Positions 39,219-51,614 of a stretch of 64,000 nt of DNA are shown here, one piece after another; the first letter of the stretch is position 1; each line of letters starts with the position of its first letter. A model generated the notes under the pieces. It saw nothing but the letters and a program-made list of their open reading frames with translations, searched no databases and was not told the DNA's origin. Source of the DNA: Candidatus Thorarchaeota archaeon (GTDB lineage Archaea; Asgardarchaeota; Thorarchaeia; Thorarchaeales; Thorarchaeaceae); assembly GCA_046482545.1 (NCBI GenBank), contig JAWOEX010000028.1, positions 96,001 to 160,000 on the forward strand, read 5' to 3'. The position numbers and the translations under genes were made by a program.

Positions 39219-39824
39219 TCATTGATTAACAGATTGTGAAATCTCTTCCAAACTCCTTCCAGTCATTACTGATGCTGGTTCTTCCTCCAGGATGTCCCGT
39301 TCTGGTTCAGCCTTTTCATCCTTCATTTTAATCAGAAGCCACCTTGCATTCTCTCCACTCCCGGTTCGTATCAGGACGTATCCCCCTTCCAGTTTGTTAC
39401 CCTCCAACCAGACCTCAACCTTTCCGTCCTTCAGGCTCTCAGTCATGTTCTTACGGGCTTCCGAATCCTCCTTTTCAGCTCGGAGATTACGATACGTTCC
39501 ATAATCCCAGACCATTACCGTTCCTGCGCCATACTCTCCCTCGGGGATAACTCCCTCAAAATCTCCGTATTCTAGGGCGTGATCTTCGGTAGGCACCGCC
39601 AAACGTTTAGTTGACGGGTCGGTGGACGGCCCTTTTGGAACAGCCCACGATTTCAGCACGCCTTCAATCTCAAGCCTGAAATCATAATGCAAATTGCTCG
39701 CATCGTGCTTTTGTATAACGAAAATTGGTTTCTCTGATGAGCCACTCCTACCTCCTTCAGGCTCGGGAGTTTTTGAAAAATCTCTTTTGCTACGATACTC
39801 TGCAAGCGGGTCTTCTTCATCCAT
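39219..39824 (-). CDS. Stand-alone LigD-type 3'-phosphoesterase (PE) domain protein
   Basis: YRSKRDFSKTPEP, FVIQKHDASNLHYDFRLE, LKSWAVPKGPS, TEDH, WDYGTY, WLLIK. Confidence 0.93.
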   Translation of the reverse strand: MDEEDPLAEYRSKRDFSKTPEPEGGRSGSSEKPIFVIQKHDASNLHYDFRLEIEGVLKSWAVPKGPSTDPSTKRLAVPTEDHALEYGDFEGVIPEGEYGAGTVMVWDYGTYRNLRAEKEDSEARKNMTESLKDGKVEVWLEGNKLEGGYVLIRTGSGENARWLLIKMKDEKAEPERDILEEEPASVMTGRSLEEISQSVNQ

Positions 39825-39856
39825 CCTCTGTTTCTCCGGCTAAAAGGCTCCCAGTA

Positions 39857-41935
<2,079 letters not shown>

Positions 41936-44319: not shown

Positions 44320-44440
44320 TCAGGTCGCAATCAGCCACATCAAGAGCGACCAAGCATAACAGATTGTCAGTCTTCTTCTGTTTATCTCCTTTCAAGATAA
44401 CCTGTTTCTTACAGTTTTAGGAACTGTGTGAAACTTCTGT

Positions 44441-44862
44441 GTTCCACCCTTCCCCTGCCAGCGTCGCCGCTCCCAAGGTACCCGTAGGCCTTGAGTCAGC
44501 AGGGGCTTTGTCCGTGTTCACTGGAATAGGATTCCTCCCTCGGTCCAGGCTTCTGTCTGCTGTCGTCATCCTGGGTCATCACTCCCGGCAACAGCGAGGT
44601 CTTCCACAGTTCTTGCCACGGCGTGGTCATGATCACCCACCTCAGCTTTGTCGCCGCCGCTGAGGAGGTCATTACAGACGAGGTGAACAGCCGCGGACGC
44701 CCCAGAGCTCGATGAATCTCCTGTATGGAGAGTGGGAACTTCTGTTTAGAAGAGCCTGTCTTCCTTGCAGCTTTCGGCCGCGTGCGTCACGCTACAGCGC
44801 TAGCCCACTTGCCTAGTCCTACTAGACCGGACTCCCGTACTAGGCCTAATGAACGCCCCCTG
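44441..44862 (-). ncRNA. Unclassified large structured non-coding RNA (~420 nt)
   Basis: About 60% GC island between AT-rich flanks; many helices whose mismatches become G-U pairs only on the minus strand; C(UACG)G and GCGA tetraloops; 17-bp long-range helix 44683-44703 / 44502-44521. Confidence 0.7.
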
Positions 44863-45034
44863 CTTGAAAGATAATCGTTACGGGAAATCTTACAGATATT
44901 TTACACTTTTCCACTCGGATTTTTTTAGGATTCTTGTAAAACTTATCCTTTCAAGAAATCAAAGCTATTAGGTATGCTCCAACCTATTCCCCAAGCTATA
45001 TATCCCGCTACGAAATGCTTGACGATACATATCG

Positions 45035-46525
45035 TTGCGGTGTAGAAAAATGTCAAACAATCCAGATACCAAGAAAGTGGCTGCGTTTATTGTTGTTGTA
45101 CTTGTGATAGCTGGAGCTGCATTTAGTGTCATCATATTGATGGAACCAAGTGTGCAACCGGGTGGTCCAGAAGTTCAAATCGCCACAGCAGGTGAAACTT
45201 TGGCAATCACATTGAACGAAATCAAAGCAATGGAATCCCTAGAAGGATCTACATCATTTCAGAACACATACGGAAATGTAAGAGGACAGGGAAATTACAG
45301 TGGTGTCAAAGTTGCAGACTTAGTTGAGCTAGCTGGCGGTATGGAAAGTGATCAGATACTTACAGTTAATGCGACAGATGGATACAGCGTTACCTTCCCA
45401 TATTCCAAGGTCTTTCCAAATTCTACAGCTCGAACGATTCAGGGTGATATGATCCTTGCATACGAGTACAATGGAACCGAAGTTCCTGACTGGGAAGATG
45501 GCTACAGAATTGTGTTCCTCACTGATGACGGGTACTACTCCAACGAGGATGCTCAACAAACCACTCCGTCCGAATACTTTGCAGGAGCGGCGGGGCCAAC
45601 CTGCATCACAAATGTTGACACACTGAGAATTGAAACACCGGAACCGACAGCACTCAGTATCGCACGGGAAGAAGGAACTACTGAATTCACCATGAAGGAA
45701 TTGAAGCAGATGGATACCATAACCGGACTGGGAGGTTACAAGAGATCCTCAGGCTCTCTTGAGGGGCCGCACAACTACACGGCCGTAACAATGGAGACCA
45801 TTCTGAGTTCTACAGGAACATTGCCCGTCAACTATACCATAGAAGCAATGGGTAGCGACGGATATACTACCTACTACAACAGCACACAAGTTGAATCAGG
45901 TACTTTCCAAGGCTACGACCCTGACACAGGTGAAGATATTGGAACGATAGTCTGTAATCTCTCAATCGCTTACGCCGAAAACGGAGAGCCGCTTCCTTCA
46001 GACATAGGTCCACTACGCGTTGTCACCATCCACGAAGACGGCTATTTCACCGACGGTCACTTCTGGAATAAAGAAATCGTGCAGCTGACCGTGGTTGATG
46101 AAGTGCCAGATTGGCAAATCGAGCTGGATGGCGTGGAACATCTCAACATGACGCATGACGATTACTATGCCGGTGCTTCGTGTAGCCACCACACAACAGA
46201 AATAGAGATGAATGGCGACACCTTCAAGGGTTTGCCATTGTACGTCCTTGTCGCGGCTATGGATGGTGGTAATGATACCCACTACACATTCAATTCAAGC
46301 CTAGCTCTAGCAACCCATTACAATGTCACCCTCTATGATGGTGAAGGCAATAATGTCACTTTATGCATTGATCAGATTGCGGACAACACCAGCATTGTCG
46401 TGGCAGGCTGGAAGAACGGGCAGCTGCTTGAAGGAGATGAATGGCCTATCAAACTCGTCACGCCCAATGCTACGGCTGTACTTGACAGCATAACCAAGAT
46501 TGAAATGATTGGCTGGGATGAATAA
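45035..46525 (+). CDS. Membrane-anchored protein with three molybdopterin-oxidoreductase-like (Oxidored_molyb-like) domains
   Basis: N-terminal TM; repeated YSGV/YTAV/FKGL, ATDGY/GSDGY, LAYEYNG/IAYAENG/AGWKNG, GPLRVV/WPIKLV; likely ATG at 45050. Confidence 0.72.
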   Translation: MRCRKMSNNPDTKKVAAFIVVVLVIAGAAFSVIILMEPSVQPGGPEVQIATAGETLAITLNEIKAMESLEGSTSFQNTYGNVRGQGNYSGVKVADLVELAGGMESDQILTVNATDGYSVTFPYSKVFPNSTARTIQGDMILAYEYNGTEVPDWEDGYRIVFLTDDGYYSNEDAQQTTPSEYFAGAAGPTCITNVDTLRIETPEPTALSIAREEGTTEFTMKELKQMDTITGLGGYKRSSGSLEGPHNYTAVTMETILSSTGTLPVNYTIEAMGSDGYTTYYNSTQVESGTFQGYDPDTGEDIGTIVCNLSIAYAENGEPLPSDIGPLRVVTIHEDGYFTDGHFWNKEIVQLTVVDEVPDWQIELDGVEHLNMTHDDYYAGASCSHHTTEIEMNGDTFKGLPLYVLVAAMDGGNDTHYTFNSSLALATHYNVTLYDGEGNNVTLCIDQIADNTSIVVAGWKNGQLLEGDEWPIKLVTPNATAVLDSITKIEMIGWDE

Positions 46526-47471: not shown

Positions 47472-50210
47472 ATGCTTGACAAGTCTGAACAAGACAACCA
47501 GGAGGCAGGCCCATTGGATACTCATGAATGGAGGCGAGAATTGGATAAACTCTCTGAAGCGAAGAGCACACTGGTGCACTTAAATCCCAAAGCTGATGAG
47601 AAACTGAAACGGCCAATGCGCCATTTGTACGACGTGTTCGCCAAGCTGAGTCAGACTGAAGAAGAAATCGAAGAAACCTCAGGCATAAACATTCTCAAGA
47701 AGAGGCGTTTGTCAGATCAAATTGAAAAGGTTTCTGGAGAGCTTAGAGAGGACTTCATGAGAGTTGTTAGAGATTTGGCCGACGAGGTGCGACAAGAATA
47801 CCATCAGACTACTCAGATGGCTCAGCGCCTCCAAAACATATCTCCGGCCAAAACCAAGTCAATAAAAGCACTTGAATTTCCTCCTGTTGGAGCTGGAGAC
47901 GTAAAAGATTTCCAGAGACTCTACAGTTTCCTCAAGGAATATTCTGAAAAATATACATCATTACATAGAGAAGTCGCAAGACAGGTAGGGGCATTACTTG
48001 ATGAAAATAAACGTACACTTGAGACCTATGAAAGACATATCACCATAGACCGGGGCGAAATCTCTGCAACAGTATCAATAGACAGCGTTGAAGGATTACA
48101 CATTGCAGATCTTGTCGAGGCAATGGAGAAACTCAAGGCTGAGAAGGCATACCTTGACGGACGGAAAGACGAAGTGAGCAGAATGCTCGCAGCCTCTCTT
48201 GTGTCTGAAGTTGAATCATTGCAGGCCTCAGTTGATACGGCATCTCGATTGGGATTGGAACTTCCAATTGACTACCCAAAGGAAATCAGAAGTATTGCCA
48301 GGGATGCCACACAAACGAACAATCTCACCTCCCTTGTGAGCTTGGAGAGTCAACTGCACTCTTCCAAACAAAAGATAGCGAACATGCTTAGAGACAAAAT
48401 CATCAATATCAAACATAGTGTGACCTCAAGGATTGTTGAAGGAGGCATACCTACCAGTTCGGATATTATTCCAGAAACTCCGACAGCGGTTCCTGAAGGT
48501 GATGACGTAGCTACTTTGCTTTCCGCCTATCAAAAAATGATTGAGTGGCAAGGGCAGGTCAAGATTGGGCTAAAAGATCGAATACAGGAAGTACTCGAGG
48601 AAATCGAGAAAGCAACTGAACGGCCTGAAGACGTAGGGATTAAGGATATCCTAACGGTCAGAGAATTTCTTGCGAATTCAAAGAAGAAGTTAGAGAAAGC
48701 CCAAATCGATGATATGATCAAGATATATCTGAAAGCTACCAACATGCAAGAGGAATATCGAAAAACAGTCACTGAGAAAATTCGAGAGTACTTGCAGCGT
48801 TTCAATGAACTTGCAACTTCAGCTGATAGAGTACTTGATTATGCACAACTCAGCAAGAAAGCACCAAAAGTGGATGAACTACAGGGTGGGTTGGTGTACT
48901 TGCTAAAGTCCCTAGACAACCTTCGGGATGCTGTTGAGAGTGGCGTGACTACATTTAGAGACGCAGCAAAGCAAGAACTCGAGGCCATTATCAACGACCT
49001 CCAAACTATCAAGCCAGAATATGCCGAGCTATTCCTTCCGATAATAGTTGACTTGGAAGATGGCGCTACGACAATAGAAGAACTTGATGAATTTGGTGCA
49101 ATTCGTTCTGAGATGCGAACAATCAAAGACAGTATTCTTGTGAAGGCCAAGGAGGCACTAGAAAATCTCAGGTATAGGCTTGGTGTCAAGATTCGTCTTG
49201 CTGCAGCTAAACTGATGGGTGCTGGAGTGACAATTCCGGGCGAGGTACAAGATTCAATCAGTGAACTGAACAATGTCGGTGTCGCAGCTGATTCTGTATT
49301 GAAATTGCCATCAAGAGCAAGAAAGATGATTGAAATCTATCAGAATGATATTTCCGGCGAAATTGTTGAGTTACTAGTCGACGAAGTCGATGAACTCATA
49401 GAATCATTTGACCAGGCTGCCAAGGTCGGCGTGCCGATGGATAAAGAGCTATCCAGATTGCGGAATATCAAACACAATCCCCCTCGGGAATTGGAAGCAG
49501 CAGCAGAGACATATGACGAACTGCGTACCCTAACCTCTTCAGAAGCACTTCAGAAGAAAATCCGCAGCAGGGCTGATCAGGCGTATGACCAGCTCAAAGA
49601 TGCAATCTCTATTTTCGAGCAGGAAGGGATGACTGATTTTGTACAGCGTTTGAATAATTTGCTGGATCAAGTCCCTGAAGAGATAGCAAGCGATGATACC
49701 GAAATCACTGAGACTCTTGATGTATGCCTTACTATGGCGAATATTCAAGAAGAGATGCTTGATGTGATTAAGAATATAGCAAACAAAAACCAAGAAACAT
49801 TACATGAAAATCTTTCAGAAGAGAGCAAGTACTACTCCACAATACGTCGAGTTTATGAAAGACATCCAAAAGAATTCAGCCAGAAAGTTTTCCCGCTTAG
49901 TCGCATGGAATCTCTTCAGGAGGAACTTCAGAATGCAGAAATGCTGGACACAGCAATAGCAAGATTCAACGAAATGAACGATCTCCAGACTAGGTGGGGG
50001 CAACAAGCGAAGAAAATGGATGATTGGCATAAATCACTGCGCATGTATATGTCAGGCTTTACCCCTGGGGCACCAGTTGATGACAGGAACAAGTTCATTG
50101 AGGACGCTAAGAGAGAAATCAAGGACAATTACAGCAAGGAAGACATAGTTTCTTATCTCTCTTGGGCGATGGACGTCATAGCTGACACAATGGTAAAGAA
50201 AAGAGAATGA
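47472..50210 (+). CDS. Large all-alpha helical repeat / coiled-coil protein (912 aa)
   Basis: Continuous heptad-like amphipathic helices broken by xG-hydrophobic turns; no TM, no P-loop. Confidence 0.85.
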   Translation: MLDKSEQDNQEAGPLDTHEWRRELDKLSEAKSTLVHLNPKADEKLKRPMRHLYDVFAKLSQTEEEIEETSGINILKKRRLSDQIEKVSGELREDFMRVVRDLADEVRQEYHQTTQMAQRLQNISPAKTKSIKALEFPPVGAGDVKDFQRLYSFLKEYSEKYTSLHREVARQVGALLDENKRTLETYERHITIDRGEISATVSIDSVEGLHIADLVEAMEKLKAEKAYLDGRKDEVSRMLAASLVSEVESLQASVDTASRLGLELPIDYPKEIRSIARDATQTNNLTSLVSLESQLHSSKQKIANMLRDKIINIKHSVTSRIVEGGIPTSSDIIPETPTAVPEGDDVATLLSAYQKMIEWQGQVKIGLKDRIQEVLEEIEKATERPEDVGIKDILTVREFLANSKKKLEKAQIDDMIKIYLKATNMQEEYRKTVTEKIREYLQRFNELATSADRVLDYAQLSKKAPKVDELQGGLVYLLKSLDNLRDAVESGVTTFRDAAKQELEAIINDLQTIKPEYAELFLPIIVDLEDGATTIEELDEFGAIRSEMRTIKDSILVKAKEALENLRYRLGVKIRLAAAKLMGAGVTIPGEVQDSISELNNVGVAADSVLKLPSRARKMIEIYQNDISGEIVELLVDEVDELIESFDQAAKVGVPMDKELSRLRNIKHNPPRELEAAAETYDELRTLTSSEALQKKIRSRADQAYDQLKDAISIFEQEGMTDFVQRLNNLLDQVPEEIASDDTEITETLDVCLTMANIQEEMLDVIKNIANKNQETLHENLSEESKYYSTIRRVYERHPKEFSQKVFPLSRMESLQEELQNAEMLDTAIARFNEMNDLQTRWGQQAKKMDDWHKSLRMYMSGFTPGAPVDDRNKFIEDAKREIKDNYSKEDIVSYLSWAMDVIADTMVKKRE

Positions 50211-50222
50211 ACAAGGAGGACA

Positions 50223-51614
50223 ATGACAATGCAAGGAATGGGATCACCAAGCTCTGAAGGCGATTCAGCGCGAGCTGCCGAGATATTTGCAATAGGAATA
50301 GGCGAATGCGGCTCAAATATCGTTGGTTCATACCTGCAATCAAGTAGAGACAAGAAGCTGCCCTCCAGAGTCAGAGGTTACATGCTCATCAACACAGATA
50401 GAGCAGACTTGACAAAAGTGCGGGATAAATACGGAATTCCCAAGGATCACACGCTCTTGTACGGAGCGAGCGAAATCGGTGTTGGTGGCAGATTCATGGA
50501 TGGTTATGAAGCTGTAATGAATTCGAAAGACATCATCTTCGATCAACTTGCCGGACTCGGCTTTGAAGGAGTCTCGGGATTTTGCATCTTTACCAGCCTT
50601 GGTGGGGGTACAGGATGTGGAGGTACCCCGGCGCTCATCAAACTCTTGAAGCAGAGATTCCAAGAAGAAGAAGGCAGGCGAATATTCGTCTATGTCATAG
50701 GAGTGCTTCCATTCGAAGGACAATCCAGCGAAGCTCTCAACTCGCTGTGGGGAATGTCCAAACTGCTTAGAGAACAGCTGCAAGAGCGTGGCGCTGATTT
50801 GACTATTCTTCTTAGCAATCGTACTATGCTGAAGCGAATCCTACAGTCGAGGAGAACAGACAGCGTAGACTACCTTCAGCGAGAACTTGAGATTGATATT
50901 GCCAACATAAATTCAATCGAGACAATGGTTCCTTCCACCCTAGAGTCCGCCGCTCCACAGGATGTAAGGACCGAACAAGCATTCGTAGAACTTGTCAATC
51001 CCATGGCGCTTGATGTAATTGATGCTATGCTTTCTCCCGGTGTTTACGAGCCTGAGAAAGATGTGTTTCCAACTACTGACTTGGCAGATTACAGTCGGCG
51101 TCTCGACCCTGTAGTAATACCTGCACTCTATCGGGACGCGGGCTTGATTCCTGATGCCGGTAACATGCAAAACCAACTCAAATCCATGGTGAATTATACG
51201 GCGACACAGCAATCATATGCTGATATAGGAGAGCAGCCAAATGCTGAATCGGTCTTCTATGTTTTCAAAGGGTCACGTCGAATCGCAAAAGCAGAGTATG
51301 GATCGTATCTTAAGGAGGCGTTGAGCCAGTTCACTGCACCAGGTGCGGCTATCACTCCATGCTATGTCAAATACGAAAATGAAACACCCACCGATCTATT
51401 GCTTCTTTTTGGCCTGCCTAAGATTCCCGAACTTGTCGAAATTGTCAAGGAAGCTACACAACTGGTAAATCTCCATAGCGGTAAATCGCCGCTCAAGCAG
51501 TCGTGGTTCAAGCGGTCAAAAGGTGTTGAACGGAGAGAATTGGTTAACGCCATCAACGACATTCGAGAGCTGTTCGGCTACTACGCTGATTTCCAAACCC
51601 AACCAACTGAATAG
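50223..51614 (+). CDS. Divergent tubulin/FtsZ/CetZ-superfamily GTPase
   Basis: IGIGECGSNI (T1), INTDRADL, GVGG (T3), SLGGGTGCG (T4 signature), VLPFEG, SN (DN position), TTDLADY (T7); GGAGG RBS. Confidence 0.92.
   Translation: MTMQGMGSPSSEGDSARAAEIFAIGIGECGSNIVGSYLQSSRDKKLPSRVRGYMLINTDRADLTKVRDKYGIPKDHTLLYGASEIGVGGRFMDGYEAVMNSKDIIFDQLAGLGFEGVSGFCIFTSLGGGTGCGGTPALIKLLKQRFQEEEGRRIFVYVIGVLPFEGQSSEALNSLWGMSKLLREQLQERGADLTILLSNRTMLKRILQSRRTDSVDYLQRELEIDIANINSIETMVPSTLESAAPQDVRTEQAFVELVNPMALDVIDAMLSPGVYEPEKDVFPTTDLADYSRRLDPVVIPALYRDAGLIPDAGNMQNQLKSMVNYTATQQSYADIGEQPNAESVFYVFKGSRRIAKAEYGSYLKEALSQFTAPGAAITPCYVKYENETPTDLLLLFGLPKIPELVEIVKEATQLVNLHSGKSPLKQSWFKRSKGVERRELVNAINDIRELFGYYADFQTQPTE

What the first reader, a model, noticed from the sequence alone, without database searches (positions are those of the whole stretch)
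44441..44862. Stand-alone ~420-nt highly structured ncRNA of unrecognised class (minus strand)
Seen: about 60% GC (250/420 by my count) against AT-rich flanks, with no credible ORF. Minus-strand helices include GGGGC-GUCCG-[CGGC]-UGUUCAC / GUGAACA-CGGAC-[AAA]-GCCCC (17 bp, long range) and CCCCUGCUG/UGGCAGGGG, which encloses a CUCAAGG/CCUUGGG arm with a C(UACG)G loop and a GCG(GCGA)CGC hairpin. Others are GCUGUUG/CGACAGC capped by GGG-AGUGAUGA-CCC (box C-like K-loop, possible L7Ae site), CCUCAGC/GCUGAGG, GCGGC/GCUGC, GCCUAGU/ACUAGGC and GUUC(C)CACUCU/AGGGUGGAAC. Several pairs are G-U only on the minus strand, which fixes orientation. GCCCCUGC has three possible partners, hinting at alternative conformations, and ACAGAAG occurs four times in and just beyond the element. 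I could not find the SRP helix-8 motif (CAGG-N3-GRAA-N3-AGCAG) or intact RNase P CR-I to CR-V in the correct order. No minus-strand gene lies downstream, so it is not a leader riboswitch.
Basis: partly seen in the sequence, partly recalled or inferred. Interest (0 to 1): 0.8.

Follow-up and report, generated by a model that had tools for sequence, protein, structure and literature searches.

The report
Protein-free Cas1-TnpB guide-RNA mini-transposon
The structured RNA is not a new housekeeping RNA but the unusually long guide-RNA scaffold of a little-studied Asgard-archaeal transposon (a Cas1-like integrase paired with the RNA-guided nuclease TnpB), carried here on one of dozens of gene-less mini-copies that have a promoter-like box where the nuclease gene used to be.

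Summary
The RNA is real but is not a stand-alone gene. It lies in a 553-bp insertion (44398-44950, minus) flanked by a TCAAGA duplication and absent from the orthologous sites of two sister species. The genome holds 33 complete and about 100 total matching segments. The parent is an 8.3-kb element: left end, a giant Cas1/PD-(D/E)xK/RecA-fold gene (aCas1), a divergent tnpB with a rearranged but complete RuvC site, and this RNA overlapping the tnpB 3' end. That is the aCas1-TnpB (Cas1H-Asgard) family noted in PMC10691335. So the RNA is a ~430-nt TnpB omegaRNA scaffold; 49 of 96 predicted pairs show compensatory changes across 52 homologues. Protein-free copies carry a TATA-like box at a fixed distance before the scaffold (28/32), also in three other genera, and keep stems better than loops. 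In relatives the 15-19 nt just after the right end match tRNA/16S genes, which places the guide there. Likely role: mobilised by aCas1 and guiding TnpB in trans to the empty site; this copy has a weakened box and lacks the GTTCACTCA loop. The scan reported the tRNA targeting earlier on other DNA. New variant of a known kind.

The parts
44398..44950 (-). Complete protein-free mini-transposon (553 bp), internal-deletion derivative of the 8.3-kb aCas1-tnpB element
   Evidence: Bases 3-74 and 131-553 are 83% identical to the two ends of the full element G000 C28:133391-141686; orthologous sites in G001 and G002 are empty
44951..44956 (.). Target-site duplication, left copy (TCAAGA on +; TCTTGA on -)
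   Evidence: Sequence; exact duplication in 18/31 copies vs 3.8 in shuffled pairings, max 9 of 2000
44392..44397 (.). Target-site duplication, right copy; whether its first T is host (6-bp TSD) or element (5-bp TSD) is not resolved
44877..44950 (-). Left end with phased TTTTACA / TGTAAAA / TGTAAGA motifs (44941, 44905, 44894); inferred aCas1 binding sites, imperfect inverted repeat of the right end
   Evidence: the motif reads TGTCAGA at both ends in genera g2/g7
44847..44853 (-). TATA-like box (TTCATTA here, TTTATTA in most copies), in a 56-bp filler that replaces tnpB
   Evidence: Present in 28/32 protein-free copies, always 34 nt before the scaffold; 0/236 internal control windows, 3% of random windows. 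Transcription not shown
44398..44819 (-). omegaRNA scaffold (422 nt here; 404-455, median 433, in 52 full-length relatives); predicted start near 44825-44819
   Evidence: Covariation; window copy keeps 87/93 family pairs
44566..44819 (-). Decayed tnpB C-terminal coding sequence inside the RNA (stop at codon 11, later frameshift)
44573..44586 (-).
   Evidence: AGUGAUG conserved, pairing 87-94% but nearly invariant, so inconclusive
44452..44505 (-). 3' branched hairpin (CCCCUGC/GCAGGGG with two arms)
   Evidence: Strongest covariation
44412..44426 (-). Short CAGUU/AACUG hairpin whose loop has lost the family's GTTCACTCA motif
   Evidence: Alignment A4; motif missing in 22/33 protein-free copies
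44398..44413 (-). Right end (TGTAAGA...GGTTA)
   Evidence: 71 matches in the genome
44380..44397 (-). Predicted guide: host flank starting at or one base into the duplication; matches the empty site
   Evidence: Inferred from tRNA/16S-matching 15-19-nt segments at this position in relatives

Best explanation
The feature is a non-autonomous mini-transposon of the Thorarchaeota aCas1-TnpB family that keeps both ends and the whole TnpB guide-RNA (omegaRNA) scaffold. Shown: descent from the 8.3-kb aCas1-tnpB element, insertion at a T^CNNGA site with a 5-6-bp duplication, a conserved covarying RNA fold, a TATA-like box at fixed spacing. Inferred: the Cas1-like domain of aCas1 (four full-length genes in this genome) moves the mini-elements in trans by binding the TGTAAGA end motifs; the box drives a ~430-nt RNA that runs into the right flank; TnpB from the five intact tnpB genes loads it and cuts element-free alleles of the same site, so that repair from the occupied allele keeps or spreads the copy (cut-and-copy homing, as proposed for IS605 elements). 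Confidence is about 0.93 for the identity, about 0.55 that the family's protein-free copies still supply guides, and about 0.35 for this particular copy.
For: Multicopy with TSDs and empty orthologous sites. Full element with the same ends and a TCAGGA duplication. tnpB: NCBIfam NF040570 E 5e-26; D242, G345, E403, D437 and four Cys invariant in 21 proteins, the G-for-E plus relocated E pattern described as a compensated rearrangement in PMC10691335. Giant ORF: top 12 fold matches all Cas1/casposase, best Z 13.1, rmsd 3.5, 178 aligned; RecA fold at 590-876; divergent pair in 16/21 loci. RNA: 49/96 pairs compensatory; in protein-free copies 90% of cells paired, 132 compensatory vs 6-19 in slid controls; sister copies differ at 0.095 of paired vs 0.159 of unpaired sites, p 5e-10. 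Promoter-like box in four genera. Guide position: 11/44 flanks match tRNAs at >=12/14 vs 0/44 reversed and 0/44 shuffled, matches stop after 15-19 nt.
Against: No transcript, RNP or cleavage data. No TAM consensus upstream of 18 target sites, so how self-cutting is avoided is unexplained. The window copy and 22/33 protein-free copies lack GTTCACTCA, a motif conserved in intact elements, and the window's box has one mismatch. Protein-free copies are old (mean 73%, best pair 95% identical) and interleave with autonomous subfamilies on the tree, so part of the stem conservation could be inherited or come from gene conversion. A DDE-like reaction with a TSD would not by itself regenerate a clean empty site.
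Confidence: 0.62

Rival explanations
1. Passive MITE: only the ends matter; the RNA is a decaying passenger whose fold looks conserved because copies descend from, or are converted by, active elements.
For: Loss of GTTCACTCA in two thirds of copies; mixed tree positions; three shorter copies have lost 130-270 nt of the RNA; folding energy no better than shuffles.
Against: A TATA-like box at fixed spacing in a filler not found in the parent, with different fillers in other genera; stems change less than loops or ends; complete copies outnumber short ones 33 to 3.
Confidence: 0.2
2. The RNA is part of the transposition machine: TnpB-RNA (or the RNA itself) partners aCas1 and steers or licenses integration, CAST-like.
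For: Whole 430-nt RNA kept by mini-elements in four genera; at least 26/58 full-length relatives lie within 600 bp of a tRNA gene and many guides match tRNAs; aCas1 has a RecA-fold domain.
Against: In this genome insertions follow a short DNA motif and guides are simply the local flank (1/71 tRNA-like); TnpB keeps its catalytic residues; tRNA-matching guides are explained by insertion into the gene followed by homing; two short copies share a deletion of most of the RNA, though it may have arisen twice.
Confidence: 0.12
3. Decoy: the promoter-driven scaffolds, many lacking the 3' loop, soak up TnpB or L7Ae-type proteins and dampen the parent element.
For: High copy number, own box, frequent loss of one conserved 3' motif.
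Against: Protein-free copies in genera g2, g4 and g7 mostly keep a form of the motif; no direct evidence.
Confidence: 0.05
4. A host housekeeping or regulatory ncRNA of a new class, or a divergent SRP/RNase P RNA.
For: No Rfam match.
Against: Normal RNase P (156 bits) and SRP (103 bits) RNAs exist elsewhere; the site is empty in two congeners; sequence is continuous with tnpB in the parent.
Confidence: 0.01

Closest known systems
aCas1-associated TnpB loci, groups Cas1H-Asgard-1/-2 (Altae-Tran et al. 2023, PMC10691335; aCas1 from Makarova et al. 2020, cited in PMC8730458, not readable here)
   Same: Asgard host, Cas1-like gene beside tnpB, GTTCACTCA motif downstream of tnpB, flanking repeats.
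   Different: The paper gives no RNA fold or length, no ends or TSD and no protein-free derivatives in its main text, and suggests the guide lies upstream of GTTCACTCA; the data here put it about 15-20 nt downstream of that motif, right after RGGTYA.
PATE-like protein-free IS200/IS605 elements that encode omegaRNAs (Meers et al., bioRxiv 10.1101/2023.03.14.532601)
   Same: Ends plus omegaRNA, no protein, would need transposase and TnpB in trans.
   Different: Those use a Y1 transposase, palindromic ends, a TAM and scarless excision; this one has a Cas1-like mobiliser, a 5-6-bp TSD and no visible TAM.
IS605/IS607 TnpB omegaRNA (e.g. ISDra2 reRNA; own knowledge)
   Same: Overlaps the tnpB 3' end, reaches the right end, guide taken from the flank.
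   Different: About 430 nt rather than roughly 150-230 nt; different fold; RuvC-II glutamate relocated in its TnpB.
Casposons (own knowledge; casposase 6opm among fold matches)
   Same: Cas1-fold integrase, TSD, liking for tRNA genes in relatives.
   Different: No family B polymerase in the 8.3-kb element; Cas1 domain lacks the N-terminal beta domain and is fused to nuclease and RecA-fold domains; short TSD; carries tnpB.

Membership tests
TnpB omegaRNA | Overlaps or follows the 3' end of a tnpB gene | tested here: met
   in all 21 tnpB loci the RNA overlaps the last ~85-110 codons
TnpB omegaRNA | Conserved, covarying secondary structure | tested here: met
TnpB omegaRNA | Guide taken from DNA just outside the right end | tested here: met
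   15-19-nt tRNA/16S matches start +1/+2 after RGGTYA in relatives; indirect
TnpB omegaRNA | 3' pseudoknot next to the guide | tested here: inconclusive
   Three candidate partners for GUUCACUCA, all nearly invariant; motif absent in the window copy
TnpB omegaRNA | TAM upstream of the target | tested here: inconclusive
   No consensus beyond the T of TCNNGA
TnpB omegaRNA | Forms an RNP and directs cleavage | not testable with these tools
   Needs biochemistry
aCas1-TnpB (Cas1H-Asgard) | Cas1 homologue next to tnpB in an Asgard genome | tested here: met
   relatives named Ca. Thorarchaeota
aCas1-TnpB (Cas1H-Asgard) | GTTCACTCA motif downstream of tnpB | tested here: met
   Met in the parent and relatives; deleted in the window copy itself
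aCas1-TnpB (Cas1H-Asgard) | Placement in group 1 versus group 2 of the published tree | not tested
   Supplement not held
Non-autonomous mini-element (MITE-like) | Short, non-coding, multicopy, shares ends with an autonomous element | tested here: met
Non-autonomous mini-element (MITE-like) | Target-site duplication and empty orthologous site | tested here: met
Non-autonomous mini-element (MITE-like) | Clear terminal inverted repeats | tested here: inconclusive
   Only a TCTTACA/TGTAAGA core 9-10 nt in from the ends; outer left bases vary
PATE (IS200/IS605) | Y1 transposase parent, no TSD | tested here: not met
   Parent carries aCas1; TSD present
Casposon | Family B DNA polymerase gene in the element | tested here: not met
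   Only aCas1, a 225-aa ORF and tnpB in the 8.3-kb element
Archaeal SRP RNA / RNase P RNA / HEARO / OLE / raiA | Match to the Rfam model | tested here: not met
   canonical SRP and RNase P elsewhere
K-loop (L7Ae site) | Conserved box C (RUGAUGA) with tandem G-A pairs | tested here: inconclusive
   GUGAUG conserved, final A in 18/52; binding not testable

The most novel reading that the evidence does not exclude
aCas1, TnpB and the 430-nt RNA act together as an RNA-guided integration or homing machine built on a Cas1 integrase, and the dozens of promoter-bearing, protein-free cassettes are its working guide genes.
Probability: 0.13. Interest if true: 0.9.

Novelty: new variant of a known kind. 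Interest (0 to 1): 0.5.

Why it matters
aCas1-TnpB elements have only been noted in passing and never tested. This finding gives what a test needs: exact ends, a TCNNGA target with a short duplication (good evidence that this odd Cas1 fusion really is a transposase), a covariation-supported fold for a guide scaffold two to three times the usual length, a corrected guide boundary, and natural promoter-plus-scaffold cassettes that mark where the RNA starts. It bears on how Cas1 integrases and Cas12 ancestors have been paired outside CRISPR, and on whether gene-less cassettes act as trans guides. As a class (protein-free omegaRNA elements) it is already described, so the surprise is moderate.

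Tried and rejected
Rfam at gathering and E<=10, ARAGORN: nothing in the element. Divergent SRP or RNase P: rejected. Riboswitch for the + strand gene at 45035: rejected, the element is absent from congeners. Tyrosine- or serine-recombinase element with a fixed core: considered because of the palindromic hexamer, rejected since left and right hexamers vary together and no such gene is in the parent. Pfam, NCBIfam, PDB-sequence searches did not name the giant ORF; only folds did. An internal guide equal to the element's own right end, and the published upstream 'hypervariable' guide: less likely than the flank. TAM search: none. Long tRNA 'intron' called by ARAGORN in L052: artefact. Sigma-70 promoter scan: not applicable. 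Whether short copies moved after losing the RNA: unresolved, the shared junction is a microhomology. aCas1 N-domain profile found no match at E 1e-10 in 103 genomes of other families sampled from the phylum; viral contigs gave only distant TnpBs. Makarova 2020 could not be read.

Full report
Observation. The GC-rich island is there (251/422), has no Rfam match and folds no better than shuffles as a single sequence (z +0.22). The genome has ordinary RNase P and SRP RNAs elsewhere.

It is a repeat. A DNA search found more than 40 dispersed copies in this genome and copies in 17 of 24 genomes of the family, none in 16 other families sampled. A profile finds 102 segments, 55 of them 300 nt or longer, 33 kb in all; 33 are complete protein-free copies. 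The window copy spans 44398-44950 and is flanked by TCAAGA on both sides; the orthologous gap is 139-140 bp in two congeners against 696 bp here. Left and right hexamers are identical in 18 of 31 copies against 3.8 when pairs are shuffled, consensus T(C/A)NNGA. The first T may belong to the element, which would make the duplication 5 bp; in other genera that position usually mismatches the target.

The parent. Some left ends lead into coding DNA. The complete element at C28:133391-141686 is 8,296 bp, has the same ends and a TCAGGA duplication, and holds a 1,676-codon ORF, a 225-codon ORF and, divergently, a 551-codon tnpB frame that runs into the RNA. The window copy is its first 74 and last ~430 bases (83% identity) joined by a 56-bp filler. 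TnpB matches NF040570 (E 5e-26); RuvC-I D, a G at the usual RuvC-II E, a relocated E in VPExWTS, the zinc finger and RuvC-III D are invariant in 21 proteins, a pattern PMC10691335 describes as a compensated rearrangement. The giant gene pairs with tnpB in 16 of 21 loci. Its N-terminal domain folds like the catalytic domain of Cas1 (top 12 matches, Z 13.1 to 9.2, next 6.7) with invariant E, H, D, D (equivalence to the Cas1 active site is my reading of the motif); a PD-(D/E)xK motif set follows, then a RecA fold. This is the aCas1-TnpB association of PMC10691335, including its GTTCACTCA motif. Relatives are named Ca. Thorarchaeota.

The RNA. In 52 homologues (mean column identity 64%) 49 of 96 predicted pairs have two-sided changes. 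The family instead pairs GGACU with AGUCC, ACUCUCC with GGAGAGU, CCGCGGC with GCCGUGG and CUGUG with CACAG. The window copy keeps 87 of 93 family pairs; scaffold length in relatives is 404-455 nt.

Promoter-like box. Protein-free copies share TTTATTA (at most one mismatch) exactly 34 nt before the first helix in 28 of 32 cases, against 0 of 236 internal windows. Protein-free copies in genera g2 and g7 have other fillers with TTAAATA or TATATA at 28 nt, g4 has CTTATTA-like boxes at 36 nt; g2 and g7 copies also show TCNNGA duplications and a changed end motif at both ends. Between sister copies paired sites differ less than unpaired ones (0.095 vs 0.159, p 5e-10), though inheritance from several active subfamilies may contribute (tree). 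A first-stage note on another copy (e1-5527852) had mentioned a TATA-like box; I measured it.

Where the guide is. In full-length relatives at least 26 of 58 elements lie within 600 bp of a tRNA gene. The 14 nt after the RGGTYA end match this genome's tRNA set at 12/14 or better in 11 of 44 cases, against 0 of 44 reversed or shuffled. Matches to internal tRNA segments and, once, to 16S rRNA end after 15-19 nt. In four genomes the perfect target exists only as the guide itself while the neighbouring tRNA is a variant, and genomes without that element hold the perfect target in the tRNA. That is the pattern of a flank-derived homing guide. The scan had reported this on other DNA; those notes are not independent support. 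In this genome's lineage guides are ordinary flanks (1 of 71 tRNA-like).

Mechanism and verdict. Shown: origin, ends, duplication, fold, box. Inferred: aCas1 moves the cassette in trans, the box makes the RNA, TnpB loads it and cuts empty alleles, as proposed for protein-free IS605 derivatives. Open: no TAM is visible, and this copy lacks the GTTCACTCA loop, as do 22 of 33 protein-free copies, so it may be impaired. The class is known; the combination with a Cas1-type mobiliser, the very long scaffold and the defined ends are new details. Interest 0.5.

Noticed in passing
L135 (G002 C113) and L140 (G003 C19), just after the right end: The guide position holds 17 nt identical to archaeal 16S rRNA near helix 44 (L135), with a partial match in L140.
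   Followed up: partly
L087, L092, L112, L121: Four genomes share a guide antisense to tRNA-Asp nt 1-14; in three the only tRNA-Asp gene sits at the element's left side in the opposite orientation, which simple insertion into the gene does not explain.
   Followed up: partly
L065/L111, L070, L085, L109, L123, L124, L129: A clade of elements abuts the 3' end of tRNA-Gly, some with a duplicated tRNA 3' half on the left, and without a clear RGGTYA end.
   Followed up: partly
L089 (G045 C288): Element flanked by an intron-containing tRNA-Asp on the left and an intron-less 5' fragment with its promoter on the right.
   Followed up: partly
G000 C28:35700-36630: Two right ends facing outward bracket a tRNA-Leu gene.
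   Followed up: no
G000 C20:181300-182445 and C28:231784-232140: A back-to-back pair of cassettes; and a 347-bp unit with a left end, unrelated DNA and a doubled right end.
   Followed up: no
L072:2864-3541: 225-codon ORF without Pfam or NCBIfam match just upstream of aCas1 in the C28 element.
   Followed up: no
window 47472-51614: 912-aa coiled-coil protein followed by a tubulin/FtsZ-family GTPase (PF00091 E 6e-19).
   Followed up: no
window 39219-41914: NAD-dependent DNA ligase facing an ORF that looks like a LigD phosphoesterase domain (from memory, not tested).
   Followed up: no
window 45035-46525: Membrane-anchored protein with molybdopterin-oxidoreductase-like domain (PF00174); the cassette sits about 40 bp upstream of its TATA-like sequence.
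   Followed up: no
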